A DNA stretch of 64,000 bases from Escherichia phage vB_EcoM_G17. Made by a program: the position numbers and the translations under genes. Shown here piece after piece: positions 6,653 to 20,933 of this stretch (its first letter is position 1; the number at the start of each line of letters is the position of its first letter). The notes under the pieces are model-generated. The model worked only from the letters and a program-made list of their open reading frames with translations. It had not been told where the DNA came from and did no database searches. The DNA lies in the sequence record MK327931.1. One strand, given 5' to 3'.

Positions 6653-6655
6653 TAC

Positions 6656-8156: not shown

Positions 8157-8239
8157 TTTTCTTTCCTCTCAGTGGGGAGAATCATTTCTCCCCTTCATGT
8201 AACTTATTATACAGTACTAGATTATCTTGTCAATAGTTT

Positions 8240-8563: not shown

Positions 8564-8590
8564 TTATTGTTATCCTCTATTAAATTAATA

Positions 8591-8779
8591 TTACAGTTTA
8601 TGAATCAATTCTTTATCTAAGCGATAGCGTACATTATTAATAGTAACGGCATTGTTTTTAATGCTACGCTGTACAGGTCCACCAGCAATAACAAATGTTG
8701 CTTTATTACCCCGAACAATGATAGCACTTCCAGGATTACCGAAATCATCTTGTACTAAAATACTTGATAAGTTTTCCAT
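8591..8779 (-). CDS. hypothetical protein (62 aa)
   Basis: Track ORF 8591..8785; second ATG (MENLS) has better SD spacing. Confidence 0.5.
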   Translation of the reverse strand: MENLSSILVQDDFGNPGSAIIVRGNKATFVIAGGPVQRSIKNNAVTINNVRYRLDKELIHKL

Positions 8780-8860
8780 TTTCATTTCCTCTTAGTAGGG
8801 GAAGATGTTTCCCCTTGATGTAAGTACTATAACACTACTGGATAGTACTGTCAATACTTT

Positions 8861-9118
8861 TTATCTCATAGATCTATGCCAACAATTACGCGGGGGACGT
8901 TTAAAAGTACTATCATGATCCTCCTGGCAAGTTATGCAGTACTTACATCCCTTAACAGCCTGGCGGCGATTCTCAGGGATTTTATCGCCACAGTCGAGGC
9001 AATGTATCAGTGATTCTATTTGTGCGTTAATTTGCTTTCTAGCGTGGTTTACGGCGGCCTGAATCACTGCGTTAATCTCGTCTTGTTCGGCCCCGTCTTT
9101 CGCGAATCCTACAGCCAT
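8861..9118 (-). CDS. TraR/DksA-family C4 zinc-finger protein
   Basis: Motif CLDCGDKIPENRRQAVKGCKYCITCQ matches the C-x2-C-G-x2-IPE-x-RR...C-x2-CQ signature of the TraR/DksA family. Confidence 0.65.
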   Translation of the reverse strand: MAVGFAKDGAEQDEINAVIQAAVNHARKQINAQIESLIHCLDCGDKIPENRRQAVKGCKYCITCQEDHDSTFKRPPRNCWHRSMR

Positions 9119-9315
9119 TATTTTAACCTTTTTCTATCATTAATTAATGCTTTCAGTACTATACTAATAACTTGCAATGATTCATCAATGACTATAAAAT
9201 TATTTTCTTTCATTAGATGATAGTTACCATTGATATTATATTCTAACGAGTACTGTTTACGTTTAATTTTTGATAATGTTTCTATTTGTTTTTGTACTGA
9301 TTTCATGCTAATCAT
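9118..9315 (-). CDS. hypothetical protein (65 aa)
   Basis: Track ORF; start shares a base with stop of upstream gene. Confidence 0.5.
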   Translation of the reverse strand: MISMKSVQKQIETLSKIKRKQYSLEYNINGNYHLMKENNFIVIDESLQVISIVLKALINDRKRLK

Positions 9316-9420
9316 TGTTAAACGTCCTGTAACGCATTCTAACGAGATAAACGGTTTAGTACTGGCATTGTATAGGGTAATGAATTAAAGCCCACCAGCG
9401 TTAACCAGTGGGCTATAATC

Positions 9421-9564
9421 TTACATCTTGCGGATAATCTTAACAGTATCTTTCACCGATTTACCGTCTTGCTGGCATTGCTCGATCATTGCGTATTGTT
9501 CTGCGGTCAGATCCTCGCCAGTTTTTGCCAGTACTGCGTCGATGAATGAATCCAGTGCGATCAT
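9421..9564 (-). CDS. hypothetical small protein (47 aa)
   Basis: Hand-translated (MIALDSFIDAVLAKTGEDL...); SD AAGAGAGA; promoter module upstream. Confidence 0.4.
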   Translation of the reverse strand: MIALDSFIDAVLAKTGEDLTAEQYAMIEQCQQDGKSVKDTVKIIRKM

Positions 9565-9663
9565 TTTATTTCTCTCTTAGGTTAAGTTAACTACTGTTTA
9601 TAAAACTTATTATACAGTACTATCAAACGTTGTCAATATATTTAATAGTACTGGTAATATATT

Positions 9664-9843
9664 TTAGCGGTAATCGTCGTATGCTTTATTCACCTGGCGA
9701 ATGTAACTTTCAAAGGCTTCGTCTACCGTTTCATACTCCCGAACATAATCACCATAGGAAACTACATACATACCTTTTTGATCTTCAAACGTCATGATGA
9801 TAGAATCCAGACCAACGATTTCAGTTTTTGCGATGATAGCCAT
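9664..9843 (-). CDS. hypothetical small protein (59 aa)
   Basis: Hand-translated (MAIIAKTEIVGLDSI...); promoter module upstream at about 9850-9910. Confidence 0.4.
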   Translation of the reverse strand: MAIIAKTEIVGLDSIIMTFEDQKGMYVVSYGDYVREYETVDEAFESYIRQVNKAYDDYR

Positions 9844-9936
9844 TTTTTTAATTCCTTAGTAGTGTAGTTGATAAAACTTATTATGCCAGTACTATCAATC
9901 ATTGTCAATAGCTTTGATAGTACTGTGATAATATTT

Positions 9937-10149
9937 TTAGTTAATGATAGTCAGTGTAAAATTGTAATCACCACAGCGATATAGCACGTTATTCCCAAAT
10001 GTTCCAACTAATCGCACATCACACAAAACGCCGGTTTTTTCTTTTACTTCCTTGATACTTGTAACTCCTGTAATATCTTTATTAAAGTATTCATGATCTG
10101 AAAATAAAACTTGTTTTGCATTTTTTAATTTCGACCGGATATTAGCCAT
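9937..10149 (-). CDS. hypothetical protein (70 aa)
   Basis: Track ORF; promoter/hairpin upstream. Confidence 0.55.
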   Translation of the reverse strand: MANIRSKLKNAKQVLFSDHEYFNKDITGVTSIKEVKEKTGVLCDVRLVGTFGNNVLYRCGDYNFTLTIIN

Positions 10150-10244
10150 TTTGTTTTCTCTCTGTTAGTGGGGAGAAGTTTTTCTCCCCTTGATGTAAAC
10201 TATTATACAGTACTATAATCTATTGTCAAACTATTTTTTTTATA

Positions 10245-10586
10245 TTATTCGAAATCTTCTGGACCGGACTGATAATCATCTTCACCGTATGCACTTTCTA
10301 ACTTCTCGCCAGTGTGGTCATCAGTTAGTGAGTCATCCTCATAGTTCACGTCTACGCCAGTGATGTAAAACTGGCTATCGTCTGGATCATTGAAATTAAT
10401 TTTCTGTATGTTTACAATAACTGTATTGATGCCCAGGACACCGCCATCAGCCGTTACAAAGTACTGATATTTTTCACAACCGCCTGAATTGAAACCGTAA
10501 TTAATTTCGGCCCGACCATCATTTAAACGCAGTGCCTGAGCGATGATTTCATTTTCAAAGTTAGATTGAGCAATTGAGATAGTCAT
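10245..10586 (-). CDS. hypothetical acidic protein (113 aa)
   Basis: Track ORF; promoter/hairpin upstream. Confidence 0.6.
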   Translation of the reverse strand: MTISIAQSNFENEIIAQALRLNDGRAEINYGFNSGGCEKYQYFVTADGGVLGINTVIVNIQKINFNDPDDSQFYITGVDVNYEDDSLTDDHTGEKLESAYGEDDYQSGPEDFE

Positions 10587-10796
10587 GATTTGTTTCCTTA
10601 TTACCAGGGGAAACCGTTTCCCCTTTCGATGTAAAACATTATACGCTTATTGAGATAGTTTGCAAGTACTTTTTAAAAATAGTTTTCAGTACTCAAACAT
10701 TATACAATAGATACACTCCTGCACCCTGTGGGCTAGTGAGCTATCTCTCAATGAATATATAATAGCAAAATGGCTGACCGAAGTCAACCACTTTTT

Positions 10797-10934
10797 TCAT
10801 TTATTTTTAGCTTTTAGAATCGCCGCCTTTCGTGTCATTCCTTGTTTGATGTACTCCTTTACTTTCGCTTTTTTAGCGTTTACCTTGTCTGCTTTCGTTT
10901 TAGGAGTACTGTAAATTATACCGTTAGGATTCAT
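10797..10934 (-). CDS. hypothetical lysine-rich small protein (45 aa)
   Basis: Hand-translated; TAAATG junction with upstream small ORF. Confidence 0.3.
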   Translation of the reverse strand: MNPNGIIYSTPKTKADKVNAKKAKVKEYIKQGMTRKAAILKAKNK

Positions 10935-11024
10935 TTAAATCACCATAAAGAATAGATAGGTTACTAACAACGCCGCGATCAATGCACCGACCAGGGCCGA
11001 ACTATAGTAAGCTAATGTTTTCAT
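10935..11024 (-). CDS. hypothetical membrane peptide (29 aa)
   Basis: Hand-translated (MKTLAYYSSALVGALIAALLV...); hydrophobic. Confidence 0.3.
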   Translation of the reverse strand: MKTLAYYSSALVGALIAALLVTYLFFMVI

Positions 11025-11173
11025 TTTTTAGCCTGAAAATAATGTTTAATTTGTGCGGCGGTCAATGCACAATTACGCAGGAAGTTTTCTGTATAACTGC
11101 GGCGAGTACTGAAAGAGAATTGACCTTTGCCGTTGCCGATAGTAACATCAAACCGAGCGTTGTATTGTTTCAT
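11021..11173 (-). CDS. hypothetical small protein (50 aa)
   Basis: Hand-translated (MKQYNARFDVTIGNGKG...); promoter/hairpin upstream. Confidence 0.35.
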   Translation of the reverse strand: MKQYNARFDVTIGNGKGQFSFSTRRSYTENFLRNCALTAAQIKHYFQAKK

Positions 11174-11257
11174 TTTGATTCTCCTTGTATCAGGGGAGAA
11201 CCATTTCCCCCCCCTCTATGTAAACAATTATACAGTACTGGAAACTAATTGCAAGTA

Positions 11258-11404
11258 CTATTTTTTAGATTTACGCAAACTTTCTACCATCTCAGGAGTA
11301 AGGCCCGGCGGGTAGGAAACCACTTCATCCACAAAACGCAAAGGGAATACCCCAGCGAAAGGTGAACGTGCTTTCTTGTTAGTACTCTTTTTTGATGCTT
11401 TCAT
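11258..11404 (-). CDS. hypothetical basic small protein (48 aa)
   Basis: Hand-translated (MKASKKSTNKKARSPF...); AAGGA SD; promoter/hairpin upstream. Confidence 0.35.
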   Translation of the reverse strand: MKASKKSTNKKARSPFAGVFPLRFVDEVVSYPPGLTPEMVESLRKSKK

Positions 11405-11473
11405 TTCATATTCCTTAATTAGTGGGGAGAATCATTTCTCCCCTTCATGTAAAACATTATACAGTACTGAAAA

Positions 11474-11683
11474 CTAATTGCAAGTACTATTTGAAAGTAA
11501 ATGCTCATACGCTGCATTAACTACGTTTTCAATAACCGACTGTACAGAAAGATCCCCCACGTCCCGGCTATAGTAGAAATCGCTTACAGTGGTGTCATCG
11601 TATGCAAATACTTTACCAGGTACGGCATCAATCACATACATATTAACCTTTAAGATGTCGATCTTATCCTGTACAGTAAGCAT
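11474..11683 (-). CDS. hypothetical protein (69 aa)
   Basis: Track ORF. Confidence 0.5.
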   Translation of the reverse strand: MLTVQDKIDILKVNMYVIDAVPGKVFAYDDTTVSDFYYSRDVGDLSVQSVIENVVNAAYEHLLSNSTCN

Positions 11684-11688
11684 ATTAA

Positions 11689-11961
11689 TTAACCTTTTAA
11701 GTACTGGCTTAAGTAGTCTTGTTGATCTTCGGTGATTGCAGCCATCTTCCCTAGTACTGGATTGATGATATAATCCCCTGTAACGTCCTGTAACGCATTC
11801 TCAGGCGGTTTAACGGCTGGGGTAGCCATAGCCATTGCCTGGACTTGTTCGACGCTGTAACGCTCATAAAGGCGGCATTCTTCCGGTGTTAACATAGCAT
11901 CAGTACGCTTCATCGGTTTAATGATGCTTTCGATCTCATTCAGTACTTGATTAACGTTCAT
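11689..11961 (-). CDS. hypothetical protein (90 aa)
   Basis: Track ORF. Confidence 0.55.
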   Translation of the reverse strand: MNVNQVLNEIESIIKPMKRTDAMLTPEECRLYERYSVEQVQAMAMATPAVKPPENALQDVTGDYIINPVLGKMAAITEDQQDYLSQYLKG

Positions 11962-12012
11962 GGTATAATCCCCAATATAAGCGGCCTGAATCGACCGCTA
12001 ACGATGTTTTGA

Positions 12013-12282
12013 TTAATAGGTGTATGGTTGACGTTCAAACAATGATTGCACGTTGTACGCCCCACTAATGGGCTTTGCTGGTAAATCAATTTTATATTGT
12101 TCACGCTTAAAGATAATAAAACGGCAATTGTTTTTTACATCAAAATTGATTGAACGTTCCAGGAGTTTTCCATCGTGTACAAATACAAGATAACCGCTTG
12201 CTACTTGTTTTGTAGTACTGGTTGCAACCATAGACCGACGAACATGCGTACCTGCATCGATTAAAGTACTGATATTTTTCAT
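12013..12282 (-). CDS. hypothetical protein (89 aa)
   Basis: Track ORF. Confidence 0.55.
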   Translation of the reverse strand: MKNISTLIDAGTHVRRSMVATSTTKQVASGYLVFVHDGKLLERSINFDVKNNCRFIIFKREQYKIDLPAKPISGAYNVQSLFERQPYTY

Positions 12283-12362
12283 TATACGATCCTCTTAAGT
12301 TAATTTAATTTCTTTCCCCTATGCAGACACTATATCAAAGTATCTGCATAAAGTAAAGCTAA

Positions 12363-12686
12363 TTAAAGATCTTTTTTGCGTTTAACATTCTGTACAGTAC
12401 AATGCAACGGGATATTAAGATCATTGCACACACGAGTAAGGGAGGTTTCATCAGTATTAAGCCCGTCTACTGATTCCTTTAAGAGAGATAACGCCGTTTG
12501 TTGATATGCATCTTCATAGCCATAAGTAAATGATTCAACCGCCAGATCATTCAAACCGTTATCCAGTTCAACGCTTACATGACAAGAATGATAAGTATTG
12601 CCATATGAATCAGTCCAACGTTTACCGTCAACATTGATTGCACGGATTGCAGCCAGGGAAACGGTGTTAATGATAGTTTTAGCCAT
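12363..12686 (-). CDS. hypothetical protein, paralog of 6245..6568
   Basis: Shared motifs with 6245..6568 (RWTD..GNTYHSC, FTYGY, C-terminal VKRKKD). Confidence 0.6.
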   Translation of the reverse strand: MAKTIINTVSLAAIRAINVDGKRWTDSYGNTYHSCHVSVELDNGLNDLAVESFTYGYEDAYQQTALSLLKESVDGLNTDETSLTRVCNDLNIPLHCTVQNVKRKKDL

Positions 12687-12775
12687 TTTTGTATTCCTTA
12701 AATTAATATGTTGTCTTGATAAAATCTATTATGCCAGTACTATCAAACTATGTCAATAGTACTGTGATAATATTT

Positions 12776-12919
12776 TTACTTACTTTTTGCTTTCTTTGCT
12801 GCTTCCACCTGGTCGGCCCATTCTTTACCCCATACTTGTAAATTATAATGGTACTGGCAAAGAGCAACGCCCCGCTTTAAACCCGTAATAGATTTCTGAC
12901 CACATTGACAAGTTTTCAT
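12776..12919 (-). CDS. hypothetical small Cys-containing protein (47 aa)
   Basis: Hand-translated (MKTCQCGQKS...CQYHY...); possible zinc ribbon. Confidence 0.35.
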   Translation of the reverse strand: MKTCQCGQKSITGLKRGVALCQYHYNLQVWGKEWADQVEAAKKAKSK

Positions 12920-13005
12920 TTTAGTTTCCTTGTAGTGGGGAGAACCATTTCTCCCCTTGATGTAATGTATTATACTTTATTCGATTTACTTTGCAAGTAC
13001 TTTTT

Positions 13006-13233
13006 TTAATTTAATTCATCCAGGCAAAGGATACGCTCAACGCCCAAATCAGTTAAACTAATCGACGGCACTTGATAGGTTTCAATGTATGCTACACTTG
13101 CCCACTGACCGAACTCATTAACGGCCCAGGTATTCATTGCATTTTGCAATTCCGCACCTTCCTTGTTGGTAATTACAGCAACAGTAGAAGAATTACCAGT
13201 AGTACCAGATACGCGAGTGATTACGATAGCCAT
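13006..13233 (-). CDS. hypothetical protein (75 aa)
   Basis: Track ORF. Confidence 0.55.
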   Translation of the reverse strand: MAIVITRVSGTTGNSSTVAVITNKEGAELQNAMNTWAVNEFGQWASVAYIETYQVPSISLTDLGVERILCLDELN

Positions 13234-13302
13234 TTTTTAATTCCTATTCAGTAGTTGATGTATGTATTATGTCAGTACTTAAAACTATTGTCAAACTATT
13301 TT

Positions 13303-13455
13303 TTAAAGTTTATCAATGATTGATGCCGTTTCATTGATAGTCTTGCCGTGTTTTGCACACGCGATAACTGCTTTAAATTCCTTTGATGACCAATCTTTCT
13401 TGCTGCATACTGACATTACTTGTAAAGTAAAACAATCCAGTTCATAAGTATTCAT
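13303..13455 (-). CDS. hypothetical small protein (50 aa)
   Basis: Hand-translated (MNTYELDCFTLQVMSVCSKKDW...); GAGGA SD. Confidence 0.35.
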   Translation of the reverse strand: MNTYELDCFTLQVMSVCSKKDWSSKEFKAVIACAKHGKTINETASIIDKL

Positions 13456-13669
13456 CTTTAAATCCTCAGTTAGTTAAGGTGTCTCGCCTTGATGTAATTA
13501 ATTATACGCTAATCTCTTAATCGTGCAAGTACTTTTTATTACTTTTTGCAAAATACTTTAAACGCTCTCAATCGCATTCTAACGACCTTAACTCCACCAG
13601 CTAGGGCGATGTATCAGATAATCAGTTTAATGCGTTAGGCGGTGCTAGTGGACTGGAATACTATAGACA

Positions 13670-13697
13670 CAAAAAAGCCCACTGTTTAAGGTGGGCT
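13670..13697 (-). terminator. Rho-independent terminator (AGCCCAC-N8-GTGGGCT plus T-run on minus strand)
   Basis: Perfect 7 bp inverted repeat followed by run of T on minus strand, immediately downstream of gene 13719..14201. Confidence 0.6.
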
Positions 13698-13718
13698 AGT
13701 GATTCAGTACTTTAATTT

Positions 13719-14201
13719 TTATGCTTCAACTTTGCGATGAGCTTCGATCCATTCCTCGCGAGTCATACCGCTTTCTTTGATAGCGTCCAGTACTACCGCA
13801 ATGCAGTTACCGCGTACAGGAATCAAATGTTCTTCCCCGTTATCAAGTACTACCGCTACACGTTCCTGAATCCATTTTTTAGGCTTAGATTCCGGCTTAT
13901 CTTCACCATACTTAACCGCCAGGGCTTTATGTGCCATTTCCACAACCACTTCCAGATCCAATCCAGACACTGCCGCCTGAATACTTTCAATTGTTGCTTG
14001 TAGTTCTGCTTCACGGGCTTTTTTCTGTTCTTCCAGTTCTGCTACCTTTTTGGCTTGCAGTTCTTTCGCAGTACTGTACGCAATGTTAAAATTGTTGCGT
14101 ACCGCTTTCATGGTATCGCTATCCAGTTCAGCCAGGATTTCTGCCGCTACGTTAGTTTCATTTGCTACCAGTGCTTTGATGAATGATTTTACATTAGCCA
14201 T
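13719..14201 (-). CDS. hypothetical protein (160 aa)
   Basis: Track ORF 13719..14216 trimmed to ATG 14201 (MANVKSF) with GAGGA SD. Confidence 0.6.
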   Translation of the reverse strand: MANVKSFIKALVANETNVAAEILAELDSDTMKAVRNNFNIAYSTAKELQAKKVAELEEQKKAREAELQATIESIQAAVSGLDLEVVVEMAHKALAVKYGEDKPESKPKKWIQERVAVVLDNGEEHLIPVRGNCIAVVLDAIKESGMTREEWIEAHRKVEA

Positions 14202-14400
14202 TTTATAAATCCTCAATTAAAGTTTAGTTTACGTTAGATAGTGTATCAAAGTTTTCTCGACGTGTCCAGTTTTTCGTTCGACTTACTGGCGGTCTACTTA
14301 GTGCTCCCCGTCTTGATGTAATACATTCTACGCTTTTCTGTGGTAATGTCAACTACTTTTTTAAAACTATTTTTAAAGTATCTCAGTACTACGATACTAC

Positions 14401-14433
14401 AAAAACAAAAAAGCCCACTGTTTAAGGTGGGCT
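14401..14433 (-). terminator. Rho-independent terminator, second copy of AGCCCAC/GTGGGCT hairpin
   Basis: Same hairpin as 13670..13697 followed by T-run on minus strand, after gene 14451..14750. Confidence 0.6.
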
Positions 14434-14450
14434 AGTGATTCAGTACTAGA

Positions 14451-14750
14451 TTATAAACAGTTAATTACTCCGGTGTGCGTTACTTTCTCAGTATCCATAA
14501 CCGTGACCGATCCACGCTTAGTACTGGCATCATAATAAATTGTGGTGCTACCGTTTTCGTCTTCTTCATGGAACGGGCCGTTTTTAAATGCTTCCGGCTG
14601 GATCTCTAAATCCTTTAATACAATCTCGCCAGTTCTTTCATCGGTCATTGCAACAGTGCACTGAATGAATTTTTCATTACTTACATCTAATGACGCATTA
14701 ACAGCGAAAGAGGAAACAGATAAAGCCAGGGCGATGATTGCAATTTTCAT
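14451..14750 (-). CDS. hypothetical secreted protein (N-terminal signal peptide)
   Basis: N-terminus MKIAIIALALSVSSFAVNAS is signal-peptide-like. Confidence 0.55.
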   Translation of the reverse strand: MKIAIIALALSVSSFAVNASLDVSNEKFIQCTVAMTDERTGEIVLKDLEIQPEAFKNGPFHEEDENGSTTIYYDASTKRGSVTVMDTEKVTHTGVINCL

Positions 14751-14834
14751 TTGATTATCCTTAGTTACCAGGGGGAACCGCTCCCCCTTGCTATGTAAAA
14801 TATTATACAGTACTAAAAACTAATTGCAAGTACT

Positions 14835-15071
14835 TTATGATTTTTTATAAAACATTTCGGCAGTGATATTTTTACCCGTTGGCTGTACTTTATCCAGAAT
14901 TTTTTGATGCCCTGGCCGTCCAAATGAATATGATCCGTAAACCGTAAACCAGTAGTTACCCTCAGTGTTTACATGTACAGCACAATAGGGAACGCCCCGC
15001 GATTCATCACTAGTAAAGTGTGCTACCGTTCCCGTTACATTCGAAGTCGTTGATTTGATTTGTTCAAGCAT
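14835..15071 (-). CDS. hypothetical protein (78 aa)
   Basis: Track ORF. Confidence 0.55.
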   Translation of the reverse strand: MLEQIKSTTSNVTGTVAHFTSDESRGVPYCAVHVNTEGNYWFTVYGSYSFGRPGHQKILDKVQPTGKNITAEMFYKKS

Positions 15072-15313
15072 TTTCTTATTCCTTAGTTACCAGGGGAACC
15101 GCTCCCCTATGCAAAACATTATACGCGTTTAAAAACTAATAGCAAGTATTTTAATAAAAAGTATTTGGAAAATAATTGTTGACAAGTGCATCCAGTACTG
15201 GCATAATTACTACATCAAGACGAAACAGTCACTAACCCACCGGGTGCATAGATCCGTCTATTAAATGATTCAGTACTGAAAAAGTAACGGGGAGTTATTA
15301 TCTCCCCGCGTTG

Positions 15314-15535
15314 TTATTTTGTAAGGTATAAACAGAAGTCACCTTTATTTGCTACGCCGCCAGTGTAACGCGATGAATAGTTAGAAATATCTTGTACTTC
15401 TGCTATTACCAGTGTATCATCATTCATTTCGTCGCAGAAGCAAACGGCTGGATCTTTTACGCCGATATTGTCGGCATGTTCCCGCATAGATTTAACCAGT
15501 GCTTCCAGTTGAGAAAGAGTAGTGATATTAGCCAT
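15314..15535 (-). CDS. hypothetical protein (73 aa)
   Basis: Track ORF 15314..15565 trimmed to MANITTL (GAGGA SD). Confidence 0.55.
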   Translation of the reverse strand: MANITTLSQLEALVKSMREHADNIGVKDPAVCFCDEMNDDTLVIAEVQDISNYSSRYTGGVANKGDFCLYLTK

Positions 15536-15621
15536 TGTATTTTCCTCATTACCAGGGAGAACCATTTCTCCCCTCTATGTAAACTATTATACAGTACTGA
15601 AAACTAATTGCAAGTACTTTT

Positions 15622-15825
15622 TTAATTTAATTGCTTTAAAACATACTCAAAGACACCACGCACATCATTGATCATCGCCTGGCGGTTAGCAGGTAACGCA
15701 TCAGGATCGCCACTATCCCAGGCATTGATAAAACTCCCCAAATCATGATAGATTTTATTCTGTAAGCCGATTAACTGTAATTCTTTTTCTTCAAGCTCTT
15801 TGATGCGGTCGATTAAATCACTCAT
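15622..15825 (-). CDS. hypothetical protein (67 aa)
   Basis: Track ORF 15622..15861 trimmed to MSDLIDR (GAGGA SD). Confidence 0.5.
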   Translation of the reverse strand: MSDLIDRIKELEEKELQLIGLQNKIYHDLGSFINAWDSGDPDALPANRQAMINDVRGVFEYVLKQLN

Positions 15826-15842
15826 TAGATAATCCTCAGTAC

Positions 15843-16127
15843 TTAACTGTAAGATCCGCAACGGTCGCAGTAGTGCCCGTCCTCGTCATCGTCAACGAAT
15901 TGACCGACGAAATGATCTACTTTCGCTTTCAGGTTATTATAATCGTTTTCTACTTCATTTAAACGCTTCTGGTAGTATTCCAGTGCTTTAAGATATGCCG
16001 CATCAGCAGTTTTCTCCTGCATAGCTAAATTCATGCCACGCGTTTCATCGTACAGCCAAAAACCATCGGTGCACTGGCTAATAGATAATGACTTGCTTAG
16101 TACTGTATAGTTAATTACTTTACCCAT
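15843..16127 (-). CDS. hypothetical protein (94 aa)
   Basis: Track ORF; same RBS context as 15622..15825. Confidence 0.55.
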   Translation of the reverse strand: MGKVINYTVLSKSLSISQCTDGFWLYDETRGMNLAMQEKTADAAYLKALEYYQKRLNEVENDYNNLKAKVDHFVGQFVDDDEDGHYCDRCGSYS

Positions 16128-16219
16128 TAGATAATCCTCAGTAAAGGCGGGAACTATTCCCCGCCTCGATATAAAGTATTATACGTTAATCTAACTACAA
16201 TGCAAGTACTTTTTAAATT

Positions 16220-16486
16220 TTATAATCCTTTTACTGCATCAGGTGCGACTACTCCATCAATGTATTGAACATCGTTTTCAACTTCACGGGCGGCATCATT
16301 CAGCAGATCAAAATTAAATTCCATTTCTTCCAGATCATCGAAATCAGGCTCATAACCATTAATTGTTGAATAAGTCCAAGTACCTTTTTCATAAGTTACG
16401 ACACTTACATCAGGGAAGAAATCTTGCACATGATCCATCGCATCCCGAACCAATTGATGTGCAGTTGTGATATTTAAAGTTTTCAT
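16220..16486 (-). CDS. hypothetical protein (88 aa)
   Basis: Track ORF. Confidence 0.55.
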   Translation of the reverse strand: MKTLNITTAHQLVRDAMDHVQDFFPDVSVVTYEKGTWTYSTINGYEPDFDDLEEMEFNFDLLNDAAREVENDVQYIDGVVAPDAVKGL

Positions 16487-16579
16487 TTTGTTGCCCTTTT
16501 AGTGTGAGCGGGGAACCACTCCCCGCCTCGATGTAAAGTATTATACGCTTTTAAACTTAGTTTGCAAGTACTTTTTAAA

Positions 16580-17191
16580 TTAATATGCGATTGATTCTAC
16601 TACGTCATCAATAACATTGAATTGATATTCGTTACCCTCAATCAGTGCCGTAATGTTTTCAGTAGTGAATTGATCCTCATATGCATTCTCTAAATCACGG
16701 TACAACTTGCGGGATAATTCACGAATAGTTTCAGTGAGTAGTTCCTCAAGCTCATTAACTAACGTTTCTTGTTTTGCGGTTAAATCAGTGTAAGCCGATT
16801 CAATGTACCCGCTTACAGTATTCTCATGCGAGTAGTGGGAGTGAGAACGCTTTACACTCATCGCCAAATCATCTTCATTCAGCAGGTGACGGATTGAGCG
16901 ATACTTAGTTAATGCTCTTACCTTGCGTAAAAACTTCACTGCGTCAACGTGGTCAGTACTGATTGATGCACCGTCACCCTGGGACCAAAAACCACTGAAT
17001 TGTATTTCAGCTTCATTAATGCCATATTCCGGTAGTACTGTTTCTTTATAGTATTCAATTTCACTTTCAGAAAAATAATTGTCGTTTGAGTTTTTTTCAC
17101 GTTCCCGAACCAGTTCGATAGCTGACGTTTTTTGTTCTGCGTTCAATTCAGAAAAATCCATAACGAAAGTAGTAGTAGTGATAGTTTTCAT
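16580..17191 (-). CDS. hypothetical protein (203 aa)
   Basis: Track ORF; tandem promoters and structured leader upstream (17200-17400). Confidence 0.65.
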   Translation of the reverse strand: MKTITTTTFVMDFSELNAEQKTSAIELVREREKNSNDNYFSESEIEYYKETVLPEYGINEAEIQFSGFWSQGDGASISTDHVDAVKFLRKVRALTKYRSIRHLLNEDDLAMSVKRSHSHYSHENTVSGYIESAYTDLTAKQETLVNELEELLTETIRELSRKLYRDLENAYEDQFTTENITALIEGNEYQFNVIDDVVESIAY

Positions 17192-17617
17192 TTTGTAACC
17201 CTCATTCAGTAGTTGATGTAAGTATTATACGCTTTTAAAAACATTTGTCAAACTATTTTATCAGGGGAGTTTTTCGTGTGCCTTACTCCTGGGCTACTTA
17301 ACGGGAAGTTACTTATTTCGTTCCCCGTCCTGATGTAAAACATTATACGCCTTTAAACATAGTTTGCAAGTACTTTTTAAAAATAGTTTTCAGTACTGAA
17401 TATTTAAAAAAGTATTGACAGCATTATCAAGTACTGGCATAATATACCCCATGACAACAGCTAACCCACCGGGTGCACAATTGTAACTATACTAAACTAC
17501 TTTTTCTATAGATACACTCCCGCACCCTATGGGCTACGGCTTATCTGCCAATGAATACATTATGCCAGTACTGACAAAATAAGTCAATACCGGCAATTGT
17601 AAAGATTTGTAAACTGC

Positions 17618-17848
17618 TTATACTGCAATCGCGTCCAGGCTATAATAATAATAAGTGCCGTATTGGTGTACTTTATTACCTTTTATTTCAGTACTGAATG
17701 AATCCGAACGGTTTGCATATGATGTTAATTTAAAGTACTTTGATTTGCTGATACGTTGCCATACACCGCAGATCCGCTGTAAGTAAGTAGTTTTATTCGT
17801 GGTAGTATCTTTTACAGTTTTAACTTCAGTCATATACATATTAGTCAT
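17618..17848 (-). CDS. hypothetical protein (76 aa)
   Basis: Track ORF; GGAG SD. Confidence 0.5.
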   Translation of the reverse strand: MTNMYMTEVKTVKDTTTNKTTYLQRICGVWQRISKSKYFKLTSYANRSDSFSTEIKGNKVHQYGTYYYYSLDAIAV

Positions 17849-17935
17849 TTTTATTACTCCAGGTTATAGGCGGGAAGAGTTCCCGCTCTCGATGTAAAAC
17901 ATTATACGCCATTAAACATAGTTTGCAAGTACTTT

Positions 17936-18202
17936 TTATTCAAGTACTGCAATCTTTTTAGTACGGTACACGGTCACGCGGTTGCCCTTTCGGTCGAGCT
18001 TTATTTCTACCACTCGACGCGATACACTATCAGGACTTTTCAACGCCGCTAACCAGTACTGTAATGATCTGGCGGTACTACGCTTTATAATGGCCCAACG
18101 TTTACCACGTTCCGATTGTACGCCCATATCTTTAAACGTTGCCCCGTCCTGGCGTGCGGCGATCCGAGCTTGTTCACGCGTCGCAAAATACTTAATATTC
18201 AT
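17936..18202 (-). CDS. hypothetical protein, paralog of 5754..6149
   Basis: Shares KYFATREQARIAARQDGATFKDMG and DRKGNRVTV motifs with 5754..6149; start trimmed to MNIKYF. Confidence 0.55.
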   Translation of the reverse strand: MNIKYFATREQARIAARQDGATFKDMGVQSERGKRWAIIKRSTARSLQYWLAALKSPDSVSRRVVEIKLDRKGNRVTVYRTKKIAVLE

Positions 18203-18287
18203 GCTGTTGCCCTTATCGTTGGTGTATGAATAAAACACTATTATAAAGTACTATCGCAAAAAATGATAGTACTTTAAATAAATTCTA

Positions 18288-18527
18288 TTACATTCCAACC
18301 ATTGCAGCACGGATCGCAGTAGTGCTATATTTGAATCCGTCCGGCGTTTTATCTTGTCCAGTCTGTTCTAAAAATAACATCATATGACGGGCCGCATCAT
18401 TACGATTAGTATTGGCGGCAATAAAGTCCTGGGCCAACCGGTATAATGATTCATCGTTATTAATCCAAAGGCTTACATTCCAATGAGTTTTGTTTTTGTG
18501 ACCTAAGAACATTTTTGATTTAGCCAT
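18288..18527 (-). CDS. hypothetical protein (79 aa)
   Basis: Track ORF 18288..18566 trimmed to MAKSKMF. Confidence 0.5.
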   Translation of the reverse strand: MAKSKMFLGHKNKTHWNVSLWINNDESLYRLAQDFIAANTNRNDAARHMMLFLEQTGQDKTPDGFKYSTTAIRAAMVGM

Positions 18528-18620
18528 TTTTTTAATCCTCTTATATAGTGGGGAACTATTCCCCACCTGATGTAAAACATTATACGCTTTTAAACATAGT
18601 TTGCAAGTACTTTATTAAAC

Positions 18621-18983
18621 TTATTCGTAAATTTTGCCACTGTCAGCCCATACCAGGAAACGAGGCATATTATCCCATGCATCTTGTTTTAAATTTAAAC
18701 CGTGTAATACTTCTGTACTTTCCATTCCTGGTACTGGTTTACTATACACCGCGAAATTTTCGCCCATATACTGATAAACCATCGTCAAATCACTGGCGAT
18801 CATCTTATGGATCATCGCATCAAGCATCACGGTAGCGGCGTATTGTTCACGCTTAAGCGGCAACATTGTAATAAGTTCCCGATAAGCTGAAATGTGAATT
18901 TTTACCGTTTCAGCCGGAAGACCTTTCATCTCTTCACGGAAGTTGACCAGGTTAGAAATAATTTTATTGATTTGGGTCGCCAT
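18621..18983 (-). CDS. hypothetical protein (120 aa)
   Basis: Track ORF 18621..19040 trimmed to MATQINK (AAGAGA SD). Confidence 0.55.
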   Translation of the reverse strand: MATQINKIISNLVNFREEMKGLPAETVKIHISAYRELITMLPLKREQYAATVMLDAMIHKMIASDLTMVYQYMGENFAVYSKPVPGMESTEVLHGLNLKQDAWDNMPRFLVWADSGKIYE

Positions 18984-19764
18984 CGTATTAATCTCTTTTA
19001 AAGTGTAGCGGGAAGTGTTCCCGCTCTCGATGTAAAACATTATACGCCTTTAAACATAGTTTGCAAGTACTTTCTACATGTACTTTTAAAATAGTTTTCT
19101 TTCTATATAGGGGAACTATCATTCAGTACTATTATTCAGTACTGAATCAACCAAATCACTACTACACCCCATAAAACGGCCTCAGACGCATTCTAACGCA
19201 TTAATACACCTAAGCTATACATTTGCACCATTCCAATCATTCCAGGGCTTTACGGGCCGTTTAAACGCGTTAAATTATTTTCAATTATTTTGTTTTTAGC
19301 TATTGACTCAGTACAGAAAAAGCGTATAATTACTACATAGACGCGAGAAAGCGGAAACCCCAGAGGGTGCGGAATTACGCCCAAAATTCAAGATATAAAA
19401 AAAGGATACACTCCCGCACCCTAGCAGGTAAACGCACTTTCTCAGTACTGAAATATAGTACCATAGTCCGGCCCAGGATAGCAAGCAAATTAATTAAAAC
19501 TTTTTTGCTTCCAGGGTATTGCTTTATTTTTTCAGTACTGTATAATAGTTCCATCAAGTCGAGAAAGACTCAAGCCCACCGGGTGCATAGTTACGCCCAA
19601 AATTCAGTACTGAAAAAATTTTTAAAAATATCCGTCCAGGCCGTTGACATTGCCCCCAGTTTATAAGATAATGATTCCAGATTCAGAAAAATCTAACTCC
19701 AGATACTGCGGGGAAACTATCCCCACGCGGTAGGGGAACTATTGGAAAAAACAAAATAAAATTT

Positions 19765-19880
19765 TGATTTAGCCGTCTATACTTCCAGACGTGTAACCAT
19801 CTAGCCGTTTAGCCGTCCAAACGTCTAGCCATCCAGAAATCTAGCCGTCTAGATGGATAGCCATCTTTACTTCCAGACTT
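19765..19880. repeat. iteron cluster: six copies of TAGCC(G/A)T and two of CTTCCAGAC
   Basis: Read directly: tagccgtc at about 19770, 19802, 19809, 19825 (tagccatc), 19841, 19857; no ORF. Confidence 0.6.
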
Positions 19881-20868
19881 CTGGAGGGCTAGACATATCT
19901 ACGCCCAAAATCCATCCAGGGTAACTACACCCAAAATCCGTCAGTACTATACCATAGATCTATCTTTTGAAAGGGAGTATTCAGTACTGCCATCATAGCC
20001 CTCACTATGTTACCCTAGGAGGATGAAGACCATCATGTAGTACTGAATACTGTTAGAGGGAATCCACCAGCACAAGCTGGTGGTATAATGCTTTAGATTA
20101 AAATCAGTACTGACACCATTCTGTTAATATCAGTACTGTTATTACGATTTTCATATGAGGTTCAAAAAGATGTACCACCACAGGAGGAACTATCTTTTCT
20201 GTACTGTCTCACGACAGGAGGTAGAGTAAATGAATTGTTCGCAGCAACTCATCACCCCTTGAAGCTATGTAGAACATTATACAGTACTGAATCATAATGT
20301 CAATAGCTTTCTTTCATTATTCAGTACTGATATTCTTGAGAACTACCCGACTACAAACATCATTATATCCCACAAATCATAAACGTCCCAACGTAAATTT
20401 CAACTTTCGAAGATCCAACTTTTATTTCATAGGTACTCCAAAATTTTTAGGATCGAGATTTAGGATGGAGTACTAACCAACTTTTTGCTGGAGCCTCAAG
20501 GGGTAATTGAATTTTACCCCGAAGGGTAAAAGGGTAATTGTAATTAAGGTGAAAGTAATAATTCAGTACTAATCATTGCGTGATTACTTTTGATTACATT
20601 TGATGTAATTTGCAAAATGGAAAAGGAGCTTGGAAACTACAAAGTACGGCAGACTTCCTCTGCCTACTTAGTGGCATATCAGTACTGAATCATTCACACA
20701 CATTTCCGTGCATTCTTGTCTATACTAATCAGTACTGAATCATATATAATCATTCTGTGATTCTACGGTGCTCATATAAATGTTTATATATGATTACTTA
20801 TGACTACCTATGATTACGGGGTTTAGCCTGGGGAGAATCCTAGTGATCGCATTTGTCCAGGCTGAATT

Positions 20869-20891
20869 TTAACATATGCAACATATGTTAA
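20869..20891. promoter_or_regulatory. perfect palindrome TTAACATATG-caa-CATATGTTAA (candidate dimeric-protein binding site)
   Basis: 10 bp arms, perfect inverted repeat, in non-coding DNA downstream of the small-protein operon. Confidence 0.45.
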
Positions 20892-20933
20892 AGCCTGTAT
20901 AATGCTTCCACTACGGAGCTTCCCCTAGCTATA

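What the first reader, a model, noticed from the sequence alone, without database searches (positions are those of the whole stretch)
19100..20930. 1.8 kb ORF-free region with iterons, palindromes and orphan promoters: candidate replication origin or non-coding RNA locus
No credible ORF is present, yet the region is dense in signals: (i) six TAGCC(G/A)T iterons plus two CTTCCAGAC repeats at 19765-19880; (ii) four copies of ACGCCCAAAAT(T/C)C (about 19375, 19590, 19900, 19915); (iii) plus-strand consensus promoters with no downstream ORF (TTGACT-N16-TATAAT at 19303-19330; TTGACA-N17-GATAAT at about 19643-19671); (iv) a minus-strand consensus promoter at about 20275-20305 reading into non-coding DNA; (v) perfect hairpins CCACCAGC-acaa-GCTGGTGG (about 20066-20086) and GGGGTAA-N7-TTACCCC (about 20500-20521); (vi) a 23 bp perfect palindrome at 20869-20891; (vii) about ten CAGTACTG sites; (viii) TATGA(T/C)TAC direct repeats near 20780-20815. 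This combination is typical of an origin or partition-like site and/or a cluster of small RNAs.
Basis: seen in the sequence. Interest (0 to 1): 0.75.

Follow-up and report, generated by a model that had tools for sequence, protein, structure and literature searches.

The report
Non-coding end module of phage terminal repeat
The gene-free 1.9 kb is the conserved control region at the inner end of a jumbo phage's 20.7-kb terminal repeat: it holds the physical end of the genome, early promoters, copies of an undescribed small structured RNA, and a 16-unit array of 8-bp repeats whose consensus matches the binding site of the host methionine repressor MetJ.

Summary
The window is Escherichia phage Sharanji (Asteriusvirus, a Rak2-like jumbo phage). 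It starts exactly at the left genome end, and window 1-20668 is the 20,668-bp direct terminal repeat (DTR).

The region is not a free-standing origin. It is the ORF-free module 19041-20933 that straddles the inner DTR boundary. Seven independently deposited relatives end at the same base, window 20668, and one of these ends was confirmed by restriction digests. Read outward from the repeat, both DTR boundaries share the junction CT|TAG.

The same module sits at the DTR end in at least four other lineages. It contains:
- Sigma-70 promoters pointing both ways.
- Two copies (of at least four in the DTR) of a ~100-nt structured RNA that has compensatory base changes and no Rfam match.
- A conserved promoter and hairpin leading into 16 in-phase octamers with consensus AGACGTCT, the E. 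coli MetJ "met box". In Klebsiella and Salmonella relatives, Fur-box-like repeats occupy that position instead.
- 10-bp-phased TGATTAC repeats on both sides of the cut.

The closest analogues are the T5 LTR untranslated (injection stop signal) region and the T7 genome ends. Origin function is neither shown nor excluded.

The parts
1..20668 (.). Direct terminal repeat (context): about 100 small, leftward early genes. The window starts at the left genome terminus.
   Evidence: WPEC3 record position 1 aligns to window position 1, and WPEC3's last base aligns to 20668. PhageTerm gave a Sharanji DTR of 20,668 bp (PMC11895373). The region occurs twice in the 366-384 kb records.
19041..20933 (.). ORF-free module straddling the inner DTR boundary: 1628 bp inside the repeat and 265 bp outside it.
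   Evidence: Nothing is annotated here in Sharanji. ORFs are not conserved. A comparable 1.3-1.8 kb gene-poor stretch lies at the DTR end in BF, CBB, XbC2, Muenster, pEa12 and Munch.
19303..19330 (+). Sigma-70 promoter of small RNA copy A (TTGACT-16-TATAAT).
   Evidence: The -35 and -10 hexamers are kept in all genera while the spacer varies.
19336..19435 (+). Structured small RNA, copy A. It has a 5' hairpin CGC-GAGAAA-GCG and a long-range helix GGGUGCGG/CCGCACCC that encloses ACGCCCAAAAUUC.
   Evidence: Covariance model score 98.5 bits. 77.8% of cells are paired, against 31-48% when partners are slid, and covariation is 0.24 against 0.12 in shuffles, with 0 of 500 shuffles reaching it. RNAalifold finds the same helices. 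Fold z-score is -3.5. Identity to Xanthomonas phage XbC2 is 88%.
19519..19547 (+). Sigma-70 promoter of copy B (TTGCTT, CAGTACTG in the spacer, TATAAT).
   Evidence: (family D2).
19552..19651 (+). Partial paralogue B of the small RNA. It keeps the 5' hairpin AGUC-GAGAAA-GACU and ACGCCCAAAAUUC but lacks the 3' arm.
   Evidence: 24.4 bits. 71% direct repeat of copy A (D2). Its fold is not better than shuffles, z -0.3.
19644..19672 (+). Sigma-70 promoter reading into the octamer array (TTGACA-17-GATAAT).
   Evidence: A promoter sits at the same position in BF, CBB, XbC2, pEa12 and Kaldavass (TTGCAT-17-TAATAT).
19708..19767 (+). Conserved hairpin (GC-GGGGA...UCCCC-ac-GC), then GGTAGGGGAACTATTGGAAAAAA and an A-tract, directly upstream of the array.
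   Evidence: The inner stem changes in a compensatory way: GGGGA/TCCCC in Sharanji, CTAG/CTAG in BF, CTGG/CCAG in CBB and XbC2. RaK2 has a hairpin and flank at the same position. Fold z-score is -3.5.
19771..19898 (.). 16 contiguous in-phase octamers with consensus AGACGTCT (met-box-like). Proposed protein-binding platform.
   Evidence: 15-16 in-phase octamers start about 770-805 nt from the genome end in BF, pEa12, CBB and XbC2, and the array is also present in Kaldavass. Arrays are also present in Yen9-04 and two metagenomic phage contigs (UViGs). Bona fide E. coli metB and metF operators score 6.0 and 5.2 of 8 per box in the same scan.
19901..19939 (+). Two further ACRCCCAAAATYC copies flanking the array on its right.
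   Evidence: TACACCCAAAATTC follows the array in BF, CBB and pEa12.
20276..20303 (-). Perfect sigma-70 promoter (12/12, CAGTACTG in the spacer) pointing leftward toward the early genes. It lies 365-392 nt from the genome end.
20427..20493 (.). Conserved block C (GGTACTCCAAAATTT plus ATTTAGGAT twice, 13 nt apart).
   Evidence: 82% identical in XbC2, where it lies 53 nt from that genome's end; a short match in BF. Detected by Tandem Repeats Finder with period 13.
20581..20614 (+). TGATTAC repeats with 10-bp phasing, 55-88 nt inside the cut site. Candidate terminase small-subunit (TerS) binding site.
   Evidence: (D3). vB_Ec-M-J carries one extra 10-bp unit.
20648..20668 (+). Terminal hairpin GGCAGA-cttcc-TCTGCC, overlapping GACTT (20652-20656), which lies exactly 12 nt before the last base of the genome.
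   Evidence: Seven records end at this base. GACTT-N12-end is shared by BF, CBB, XbC2 and Muenster.
20669..20690 (+). First bases outside the DTR: TAGTGGCATATCAGTACTGAAT. This is the outer half of the cut site.
   Evidence: Identical over 22 nt in Klebsiella phage Muenster. TAGYG-like sequence follows the cut at both DTR boundaries when each is read outward, in Asteriusvirus, CBB and Muenster.
20789..20817 (+). TATGATTAC repeats with 10-bp phasing, 121-149 nt outside the cut site.
20869..20891 (.). 23-bp palindrome inside the longer hairpin CAGGCT...AGCCTG, just downstream of the stop codon of gp102.

Best explanation
The stretch is the conserved non-coding module at the inner end of the long direct terminal repeat (DTR) of a Rak2-like jumbo phage. 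It is a composite of four kinds of element.

(1) Genome-end signals. Terminase cuts after window 20668. The cut lies 12 nt past a conserved GACTT, next to a small hairpin, and immediately before TAGTGG. The other DTR boundary carries the same CT|TAG junction in inverted orientation. This fits nicks on opposite strands at the two boundaries, followed by strand-displacement copying of the repeat, as proposed for T7. TGATTAC repeats with 10-bp phasing on both sides of the cut are the likeliest terminase-binding sites.

(2) Strong host-type promoters pointing both ways, used as soon as the DNA enters the cell.

(3) Two copies of a multi-copy, roughly 100-nt structured small RNA of unknown role.

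(4) A third promoter followed by a conserved hairpin and an array of 16 contiguous 8-bp repeats. The array is a docking platform for a repeat-binding protein, most plausibly of the ribbon-helix-helix (RHH) type. The host methionine repressor MetJ is the named candidate, because the array's consensus is its operator sequence.

Shown here: the location in the DTR, the terminus, conservation across genera, the promoters as sequence features, RNA covariation, and the periodicity and consensus of the array.

Inferred: the cutting mechanism, which protein binds which repeat, and any RNA function.
For: Identity and DTR:
- The window is 100% identical to Sharanji.
- Records of 366-384 kb carry the region twice.
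- The two WPEC3 DTR copies define boundaries at window 1 and 20668, matching the published 20,668-bp DTR.

Terminus:
- Seven records from different laboratories end at the same base.
- GACTT-N12-end is shared across four other phages in three genera.
- Both DTR boundaries read ...(C/A)T|TAG(Y)(R) when read outward, in three genera.

Conservation:
- Blocks 19324-19546 and 19725-19882 are found near the record ends of phages infecting Klebsiella, Erwinia, Serratia, Pectobacterium, Xanthomonas and Salmonella. Their positions relative to the genome end were measured for six of these phages.

RNA:
-.
- Among 27 distinct members, the innermost hairpin-1 pair is CG 12, AU 8, GC 4.
- Helix pair 54-157 is CG 11, GC 7.

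Array:
-.
- The upstream promoter and hairpin are conserved.
- In RaK2 the same flank leads into Fur-box-like repeats instead. This argues for an exchangeable protein-binding platform.

Comparators with the same layout: T5 and T7.
Against: - No experiment on this phage maps transcripts, protein binding or cleavage.
- The octamer array lies 770-900 bp from the cut, which is far for a terminase site.
- Half of the octamers carry C rather than A at box position 3. That position is A in 8 of the 9 E. coli boxes I scored.
- XbC2 keeps the array although its listed host, Xanthomonas, lacks MetJ (PMC4239095).
- No RHH-type protein or MetJ homologue was identified in the phage.
- Both strands of the RNA element fold well, because it is an inverted repeat. 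In the broad alignment, G.U pairs (35) do not outnumber A.C pairs (40). The transcribed strand therefore rests mainly on the conserved promoter.
- Within the genus, the region is no better conserved than the adjacent gene.
Confidence: 0.75

Rival explanations
1. Replication origin. The rightward promoters would make primer or R-loop transcripts, as at T4 oriF/oriG or the T7 primary origin. The repeat array would bind an initiator and the A-tract would melt.
For: - Three conserved promoters fire into non-coding DNA.
- An A-rich tract lies directly upstream of the array.
- The cumulative GC skew has a local minimum at 20-21 kb, although genes on both sides are on the minus strand.
- From memory: Rak2-like phages carry T4-type replication genes (PMC5259590).
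Against: - The units are contiguous 8-mers, not helically spaced iterons.
- No DnaA box lies in the region.
- No recognisable initiator gene is adjacent.
- Elsewhere in the window the skew simply follows gene direction.
- Only 64 of 350 kb could be examined.
- The array is swapped for a different repeat type in RaK2. That is easier to reconcile with a regulatory or host-factor platform than with a conserved initiator.
Confidence: 0.15
2. T5-like injection stop signal. The DTR would enter the cell first, and transfer would pause at this repeat-rich region, held by a host DNA-binding protein, until early proteins are made.
For: The layout matches T5:
- a long DTR filled with small early genes, most of them transcribed leftward in T5;
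- an untranslated, repeat-rich region at the inner end that spills over the boundary (T5: ORF-free 9158-10935 around the LTR end at 10219; 1.2-1.7 kb described; here 1628 + 265 bp);
- clusters of host-regulator-like boxes (DnaA boxes in T5; met-box-like repeats here; Fur-box-like repeats in RaK2).
Against: - No homologues of T5 A1, A2 or dmp are found in the DTR by tblastn.
- There are no DnaA boxes.
- It is unknown which end of these genomes enters first.
- Two-step transfer has never been reported for these contractile-tailed phages. That statement rests on my knowledge and was not tested.
Confidence: 0.1
3. Purely a regulatory and small-RNA island. On this view the genome end falls here only because it is the nearest gene-free DNA, and none of the internal repeats serve packaging.
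For: - The small RNA family also has copies elsewhere in the DTR, at 17457-17555 (minus strand) and 15213-15321 (plus strand).
- The array lies 770-900 bp from the cut.
Against: - The cut-site motif, GACTT-N12, the terminal hairpin and the phased TGATTAC repeats cluster within 150 bp of the end.
- The whole module keeps its position relative to the end in several genera.
Confidence: 0.08
4. Unannotated small protein genes. Several relatives annotate 5-8 'hypothetical proteins' in this stretch.
For: - ORFs of 99, 60, 59 and 58 aa exist. Relatives annotate some of them.
- A 20-aa ORF with a Shine-Dalgarno sequence follows the perfect leftward promoter.
Against: - Start codons and reading frames are lost in relatives, while the control gene gp101 stays intact.
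- Cross-genus conservation covers promoter and RNA blocks, not ORF bodies.
Confidence: 0.03

Closest known systems
Phage T5 left-terminal-repeat untranslated region ('Repeat Region 3' / injection stop signal)
   Same: - It is a large ORF-free, repeat- and palindrome-rich region at the inner end of a long exact terminal repeat that carries small early genes.
- It overruns the repeat boundary.
- It is better conserved across relatives than many of the repeat's genes.
- It carries clusters of host-regulator-type boxes.
   Different: - There is no sequence similarity.
- T5 has paired DnaA boxes and inverted 131-bp repeats. Here there are no DnaA boxes but an octamer array and small-RNA genes.
- No A1 or A2 homologues are found.
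- The DTR is twice as long, and the virion is a contractile-tailed jumbo phage.
Phage T7 genome ends (terminal repeat, short-repeat arrays SRL/SRR, promoters A0, phiOL, A1-A3)
   Same: - The first 925 bp of T7 are non-coding.
- They combine the repeat boundary, an array of about 12 short direct repeats (CCTAAAG), and promoters pointing both ways.
- The ends are exact and are generated from concatemers.
   Different: - The T7 repeat is 160 bp, and its array lies just outside it with irregular spacing.
- Here the array is strictly 8-bp periodic and lies inside a 20.7-kb repeat.
- T7 has no known small-RNA genes at its end. That statement rests on my knowledge.
E. coli MetJ operators (tandem met boxes, consensus AGACGTCT)
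   Same: - Both consist of contiguous 8-bp units without spacers.
- The consensus is identical.
- Per-box match is 5.9/8 here, against 6.0 at metB and 5.2 at metF.
   Different: - There are 16 boxes here instead of 2-5.
- The array is not at a methionine gene.
- Box position 3 is A or C at about equal frequency here, but A in 8 of the 9 E. coli boxes I scored.
- The array is conserved in a phage listed on a host without MetJ.
Centromere-like arrays bound by ribbon-helix-helix proteins (omega of pSM19035, ParG). Recalled from memory, not tested.
   Same: Both are runs of contiguous 7-8-bp repeats that serve as a cooperative protein-binding platform.
   Different: No partition ATPase or RHH gene is recognisable nearby, and this is a lytic phage.
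HK022 put RNAs (cis-acting, promoter-proximal two-stem RNAs that make RNA polymerase resistant to termination). Recalled from memory, offered as a lead only.
   Same: They are short structured RNAs encoded immediately downstream of early promoters, with more than one copy per genome.
   Different: No sequence or structure comparison was possible. Copy C ends at its own terminator, and copies A and B do not precede genes.

Membership tests
Exact long direct terminal repeat boundary (T5/T7/SPO1-type genome end) | The same sequence is present at both ends of the virion DNA. | tested here: met
   The region is present twice in nine records of 366-384 kb. WPEC3 copies are at 1-22503 and 361629-384131.
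Exact long direct terminal repeat boundary (T5/T7/SPO1-type genome end) | The boundary is fixed to the nucleotide across isolates. | tested here: met
   Seven records end at the base homologous to window 20668. Cut-site motifs are shared across genera.
Exact long direct terminal repeat boundary (T5/T7/SPO1-type genome end) | Physical ends are demonstrated experimentally. | not testable with these tools
   Taken from papers: PhageTerm for Sharanji (PMC11895373), and PhageTerm plus restriction digests for fEgEco12 (PMC13070987).
T5-type injection stop signal | Large untranslated repeat-rich region at the inner end of the terminal repeat. | tested here: met
   compared.
T5-type injection stop signal | Paired DnaA boxes in inverted repeats. 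| tested here: not met
   No TTWTNCACA in 19041-20933. There are 8 in the whole window against 13 expected.
T5-type injection stop signal | A1 and A2 genes present in the repeat. | tested here: not met
   tblastn of T5 dmp, A1 and A2 against the window gave nothing better than E = 2.5. Distant homologues would be missed by this search.
T5-type injection stop signal | Two-step DNA transfer. | not testable with these tools
   This needs infection experiments.
Iteron-type replication origin | Spaced iterons of roughly 17-22 bp bound by an adjacent initiator gene. | tested here: not met
   The units are contiguous 8-mers. Neighbouring genes have no recognisable function.
Iteron-type replication origin | AT-rich unwinding element and strand-composition switch. 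| tested here: inconclusive
   An A-tract at 19742-19767 lies beside the array. There is a local skew minimum at 20-21 kb, but only 64 kb of the genome is held.
MetJ operator | Tandem 8-bp boxes without spacers and with consensus AGACGTCT. | tested here: met
   The majority consensus is AGACGTCT in Sharanji, BF and pEa12, and AG(C/A)CGTCT in CBB, XbC2 and Kaldavass. The definition is taken from PMC4239095.
MetJ operator | Box quality comparable with proven operators. | tested here: met
   5.2-6.2 of 8 over any five boxes here, against 6.0 (metB, 4 boxes) and 5.2 (metF, 5 boxes) in the same scan.
MetJ operator | A at box position 3 (A in 8 of the 9 E. coli boxes scored). | tested here: inconclusive
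   Counts at position 3 are A 9 / C 7 in Sharanji, A 10 / C 6 in BF and A 8 / C 8 in CBB.
MetJ operator | Located at a promoter of the methionine regulon, with 2-5 boxes. | tested here: not met
   There are 16 boxes, about 100 nt downstream of a phage promoter, and no methionine gene.
MetJ operator | MetJ-SAM binding. | not testable with these tools
   This needs EMSA, footprinting or ChIP.
Known RNA families (Rfam 15, tRNA/tmRNA) | Match to a curated covariance model, or a tRNA prediction. | tested here: not met
   No tRNA or tmRNA in the window. The only Rfam hit is a chance-level plant miRNA match, E = 0.61.
Plasmid/phage partition site | Repeat array next to parA/parB-type genes. | tested here: not met
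   The array is present, but the flanking genes match only families of unknown function.

The most novel reading that the evidence does not exclude
The DTR-end module is a docking or sponge site for host metabolite-sensing repressors. On this reading, the 16-box array binds E. coli MetJ-SAM, and the position-equivalent Fur-box-like array in the Klebsiella and Salmonella relatives binds Fur. As the phage DNA multiplies it would titrate the repressor and switch on methionine/SAM synthesis (or iron uptake) for the phage. Alternatively, the bound repressor would let the phage read host metabolic state at its genome end. The module would also encode a new, multi-copy structured small RNA family specific to Rak2-like jumbo phages.
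Probability: 0.25. Interest if true: 0.85.

Novelty: new variant of a known kind. Interest (0 to 1): 0.62.

Why it matters
Long terminal repeats of about 20 kb are reported for a handful of these jumbo phages (fEgEco12, vB_Ec-M-J, CBB, Muenster, Sharanji). I found no description of what sits at their inner end. This analysis provides:
- A nucleotide-level cut-site motif shared across genera. It is useful for orienting and correctly annotating the many Rak2-like genomes deposited with arbitrary start points.
- A candidate new small RNA family with covariation support and two to four copies per DTR-end locus examined.
- A testable link between a phage genome end and host repressor operators: MetJ-like boxes in four lineages and Fur-like boxes in others. 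This parallels the unexplained DnaA boxes of T5.

If the host-repressor reading holds, it would be a new way for a lytic phage to rewire or sense host metabolism using DNA sites rather than proteins.

Tried and rejected
- tRNA/tmRNA scan of the window: none found.
- Rfam at permissive E-value over 18000-22000: only a chance-level miRNA hit.
- DnaA boxes: none in the region.
- MetJ homologue encoded by a phage: tblastn found only contaminating bacterial records.
- T5 dmp, A1 and A2 homologues in the DTR: none.
- Pfam and PHROGs on eight flanking genes: only families of unknown function.
- Conservation of the ORFs in the region: not conserved.
- Similarity of the RNA to E. coli genomes: none.
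- Conservation profile within the genus: too little divergence to show footprints, since the region is about as conserved as gp101.
- Using G.U versus A.C counts to fix the transcribed strand: suggestive in the 13-sequence alignment but not in the 27-member alignment (GU 35, AC 40).
- IMG/VR pattern scan: 3 of the 11 loci (L029, L030, L035) were GC-rich chance matches and were discarded.
- CAGTACTG as a region-specific signal: rejected, because the motif is genome-wide.
- Whole-genome GC skew: not computable, because only 64 kb is held.
Full report
**Identity of the window**

The region 19100-20930 is 100% identical to Escherichia phage Sharanji OR545507.1 (350 kb, Asteriusvirus, in the PBECO4/121Q/Rak2-like group of jumbo phages). 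In the 'near' search, 41 records hold a match and 34 of them hold at least 80% of the region. The listed full-length matches are about 89-97% identical. Window position equals record position minus 15777. Sharanji's record annotates nothing between gp101 (18621-19040, minus strand) and gp102 (20934-21125, minus strand).

**Check of the observation**

Three points need adjusting:
- The 'iterons' are part of a longer, strictly 8-bp periodic array.
- The fourth ACRCCCAAAATYC copy is at 19927, not about 19915.
- CAGTACTG is a genome-wide motif. There are 64 copies in the window against 0.9 expected. Only 14 of the 64 sit in the spacer of near-consensus sigma-70 promoters, with the layout AGTAyTTGACA-N8-CAGTACTG-TATAAT. 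The rest are scattered, many of them inside ORFs.

The ORFs in the stretch are not conserved. The 99-aa GTG ORF is frameshifted in EJP2. The 59-aa ORF has AAG in place of ATG in three relatives. The control gene gp101 stays intact in eight of the ten aligned genomes; one of the two exceptions, CMSTMSU, appears to carry sequencing errors.

**Where the region sits**

Records of 366-384 kb contain the region twice.

In WPEC3 the two copies belong to a terminal repeat at 1-22503 and 361629-384131. WPEC3 base 1 aligns to window base 1. WPEC3's last base aligns to window 20668.

The Sharanji paper reports a PhageTerm DTR of 20,668 bp (PMC11895373). Window 1-20668 is therefore the DTR.

Seven records from different laboratories (WPEC3, fEgEco12, vB_Ec-M-J, BF17, E9.1, CRJP21, ELP-22) all end at ...GGCAGACTTCCTCTGCCTACT, which corresponds to window 20668. 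The vB_Ec-M-J record annotates the DTR. The fEgEco12 ends were confirmed by restriction digests (PMC13070987).

The ORF-free stretch 19041-20933 thus straddles the inner DTR boundary, with 1628 bp inside and 265 bp outside. The same sequence up to 20668 also forms the extreme right end of the virion DNA.

**The cut site**

The right ends of Serratia phage BF, Pectobacterium phage CBB, Xanthomonas phage XbC2 and Klebsiella phage Muenster all carry GACTT followed by exactly 12 nt, as in Sharanji.

Using the internal junctions of WPEC3, CBB and Muenster, I read both DTR boundaries from inside the repeat outward. Both read ...(C/A)T|TAG(Y)(R):

| Boundary | Phage | Sequence |
|---|---|---|
| Right | Sharanji | CTACT\|TAGTGG |
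| Right | Muenster | GGACT\|TAGTGG |
| Right | CBB | GGATA\|TAGCGG |
| Left (bottom strand) | WPEC3 | AACCT\|TAGCGA |
| Left (bottom strand) | CBB | ACGCT\|TAGCGA |
| Left (bottom strand) | Muenster | AGGCT\|TAGCAC |

The 22 nt just outside the right cut (TAGTGGCATATCAGTACTGAAT) are identical in Sharanji and Muenster.

Inverted copies of one motif at the two boundaries are what one would expect if a single nuclease nicks opposite strands on either side of the one repeat copy in a concatemer, and the repeat is then duplicated by strand-displacement synthesis. That is the T7 model, recalled from established knowledge. The mechanism here is inferred, not shown.

Four of the window's twenty TGATTAC heptamers lie within 240 bp of the cut, two on each side, with 10-bp phasing. 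One relative carries an extra 10-bp unit. These are my candidates for small-terminase-subunit binding sites.

**The module is conserved beyond the genus**

A sensitive search found sub-blocks of the region near the record starts (the DTR ends) of other genera:
- Block A, about 19324-19546, in RaK2, K64-1, Muenster, XbC2, Kaldavass and Munch.
- Block B, 19725-19882, in Serratia BF, six Erwinia phages and CBB, about 690-860 nt from the record start, which for BF, pEa12 and CBB is the genome end.

XbC2 also keeps block C, 20427-20493. Each of these phages has 1.3-1.8 kb without credible genes at the DTR end.

**A structured small RNA family**

Block A begins at the -10 hexamer of the 19303-19330 promoter. 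The -35 and -10 hexamers are kept in all genera while the spacer varies.

The transcribed part has two structural elements:
- A 5' hairpin with a GAGAAA-type loop. Its stem changes in a compensatory way: CGC/GCG, CGA/UCG, CGG/CCG, GGAG/CUCC, GUC/GAC, GGC/GCC.
- A long-range helix (GGGUGCGG/CCGCACCC and extensions) around a variable apical region.

Support on a 13-sequence alignment:
- 77.8% of cells are paired, against 31-48% when the partners are slid.
- The covariation score is 0.24 against 0.12 in shuffles, and 0 of 500 shuffles reach it.
- RNAalifold recovers both helices independently.

A covariance model built from this alignment finds the following copies in the window:

| Copy | Coordinates | Strand | Bits | Note |
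|---|---|---|---|---|
| A | 19336-19435 | + | 98.5 | |
| D | 17555-17457 | - | 39 | Own promoter TTGACT-17-CATAAT |
| B | 19552-19651 | + | 24 | 5' half only |
| C | 15213-15321 | + | 12.6 | Weak match; ends in a textbook terminator |

The DTR-end loci examined in the other genera hold between one and four copies, most of them two to four.

Among 27 distinct members, the innermost pair of hairpin 1 is CG 12, AU 8, GC 4, and helix pair 54-157 is CG 11, GC 7. Single-sequence folds give z-scores of -3.5 for copy A and -6.5 for copy D.

The family has no Rfam match and no counterpart in 5,426 E. coli genomes.

Two caveats apply:
- The element is an inverted repeat, so both strands fold.
- G.U pairs do not outnumber A.C pairs in the broad alignment.

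The sense strand therefore rests on the conserved promoters. The function of the RNA is unknown. The motif ACRCCCAAAATYC lies in the apical region of copies A and B. It also occurs twice outside any RNA copy, next to the array, so it may be a DNA-level protein-binding site.

**The octamer array**

The promoter at 19644-19672 is conserved in position in BF, CBB, XbC2, pEa12 and Kaldavass. Downstream of it come, in order:
- A hairpin whose inner stem covaries: GGGGA/UCCCC, CUAG/CUAG, CUGG/CCAG.
- A conserved GGwAGGGGArCTAwTGGAAAA sequence.
- An A-tract.
- 16 contiguous octamers at 19771-19898.

The majority consensus, derived from the array itself, is AGACGTCT in Sharanji, BF and pEa12, and AG(C/A)CGTCT in CBB, XbC2 and Kaldavass. 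That is the consensus of the E. coli MetJ met box, which occurs as tandem 8-bp repeats (PMC4239095).

As a positive control I ran the same scan on the E. coli metJ-metB-metL-metF region. It picked out the known metB operator (mean 6.0 of 8 over 4 boxes) and the metF operator (5.2 of 8 over 5 boxes). The phage array scores 5.2-6.2 over any five boxes and 5.9 over sixteen.

Several facts argue against a simple MetJ assignment:
- Box position 3 is A or C at about equal frequency, whereas it is A in 8 of the 9 E. coli boxes I scored.
- There are 16 boxes and no methionine gene.
- XbC2 keeps the array although Xanthomonadales lack MetJ.
- No phage record encodes a MetJ homologue.

RaK2, Muenster and Munch lack the array. 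In RaK2, a hairpin and flank at the equivalent position lead into about 130 nt of Fur-box-like repeats. Fur-box-like sites number 8-9 per RaK2 or Muenster locus, each matching at least 14 of 19 consensus positions and the best matching 16 of 19. Shuffles of the RaK2 locus give 0.5. These repeats have 6-bp periodicity.

An array that is exchanged between lineages while its flanks are kept looks like a swappable protein-binding platform. Both versions resemble operators of host metabolite-sensing repressors, much as T5 carries DnaA boxes in the equivalent region. This is a lead, not a demonstration.

**Origin question**

There are no DnaA boxes, no helically spaced iterons, and no recognisable initiator gene nearby.

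The cumulative GC skew does turn at 20-21 kb, although the genes on both sides are on the minus strand. Elsewhere in the window the skew follows gene orientation. I cannot explain this turn, and I could not compute the whole-genome skew. An origin role remains possible but unsupported.

**Comparison with known systems**

T5's left terminal repeat (annotated 1-10219) carries small pre-early genes, most of them transcribed leftward. It has an ORF-free stretch at 9158-10935 that includes the annotated injection stop signal and overruns the repeat end. Davison describes that stretch as a nest of repeats, palindromes and DnaA boxes, conserved more strongly than many of the neighbouring genes.

T7's first 925 bp are non-coding. 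They combine the 160-bp repeat, about 12 CCTAAAG repeats, a leftward promoter A0, phiOL, and the promoters A1-A3.

The present module is of that kind in layout. It differs in all of its sequence elements, it is shared by a separate clade of jumbo phages, and it adds small-RNA genes and a periodic operator-like array. The papers on these phages that I could search report the DTRs but describe nothing about this region.

**Verdict**

The best-supported reading is a DTR-end control module that holds the genome terminus and cut-site signals, bidirectional early promoters, copies of a new small RNA family, and a protein-docking repeat array. I rate it as a new variant of a known kind of element, with moderately high interest.

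Noticed in passing
window 1-64000 (for example 3287, 3781, 11233, 15592, 20282, 48357, 63285): CAGTACTG occurs 64 times against 0.9 expected. Fourteen copies sit exactly between the -35 and -10 hexamers of near-consensus sigma-70 promoters (AGTAyTTGACA-N8-CAGTACTG-TATAAT-AGTTTACATCAAGGGGAGA). About 50 others are scattered, many inside ORFs. The palindrome may be the site of a phage DNA-binding or DNA-modifying protein.
   Followed up: partly
window 20000-25000: GC skew flips from negative to positive at the DTR boundary, although the genes at 20.9-24.9 kb are still on the minus strand. Everywhere else in the window the skew follows gene direction.
   Followed up: partly
L014 (RaK2) 1720-3100; L012 (Muenster) 1438-3100; L017 (Munch) 1259-2850: Klebsiella and Salmonella relatives lack the octamer array. 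Instead they carry 5-9 Fur-box-like sequences (up to 16 of 19 matches to GATAATGATAATCATTATC; 0.5 expected in shuffles of the RaK2 locus). Some lie in the apical regions of the small-RNA copies. Others form a 6-bp-periodic run at the position where the other genera have the octamers.
   Followed up: partly
window 17457-17555 (-) and 15213-15321 (+): Two further copies of the small RNA family lie outside the reported region, each in an intergenic gap of the DTR with its own sigma-70 promoter. The copy at 15213 ends in a classic GC hairpin plus U-run terminator.
   Followed up: partly
window 20160-20270 (-): The perfect leftward promoter is followed by a Shine-Dalgarno-preceded 20-codon ORF (MSCCEQFIYSTSCRETVQKR) and by two copies of CCUCCUGU(C/G)GUG, which resembles the anti-Shine-Dalgarno sequence. 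The ORF is not kept in EJP2, but the repeated motif is.
   Followed up: partly
window 20934-22460 (-): A tandem run of roughly 60-aa paralogous genes lies just outside the DTR. Both members tested match phrog_11711 (unknown function). WPEC3 has about twenty such genes in a row.
   Followed up: no
window 25022-39077 (+): About twelve consecutive paralogous genes of roughly 380 aa, annotated in WPEC3 as 'regulator of chromosome condensation' (RCC1/ATS1-like).
   Followed up: no
window 1-120 and L003 22300-22500: The window starts exactly at the left physical end of the genome (AGGTTACCCGCCC...), whereas the GenBank record of Sharanji starts 15,777 bp earlier. Many related records have arbitrary start points and could be re-oriented using the ...GCTA|AG (left) and CT|TAGYG (right) cut-site motifs.
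   Followed up: yes
L005 (vB_Ec-M-J) 80-100, homologous to window 20581: One relative carries an extra 10-bp TGATTACTTT unit in the phased repeat next to the terminus, a copy-number change of exactly one helical turn.
   Followed up: no
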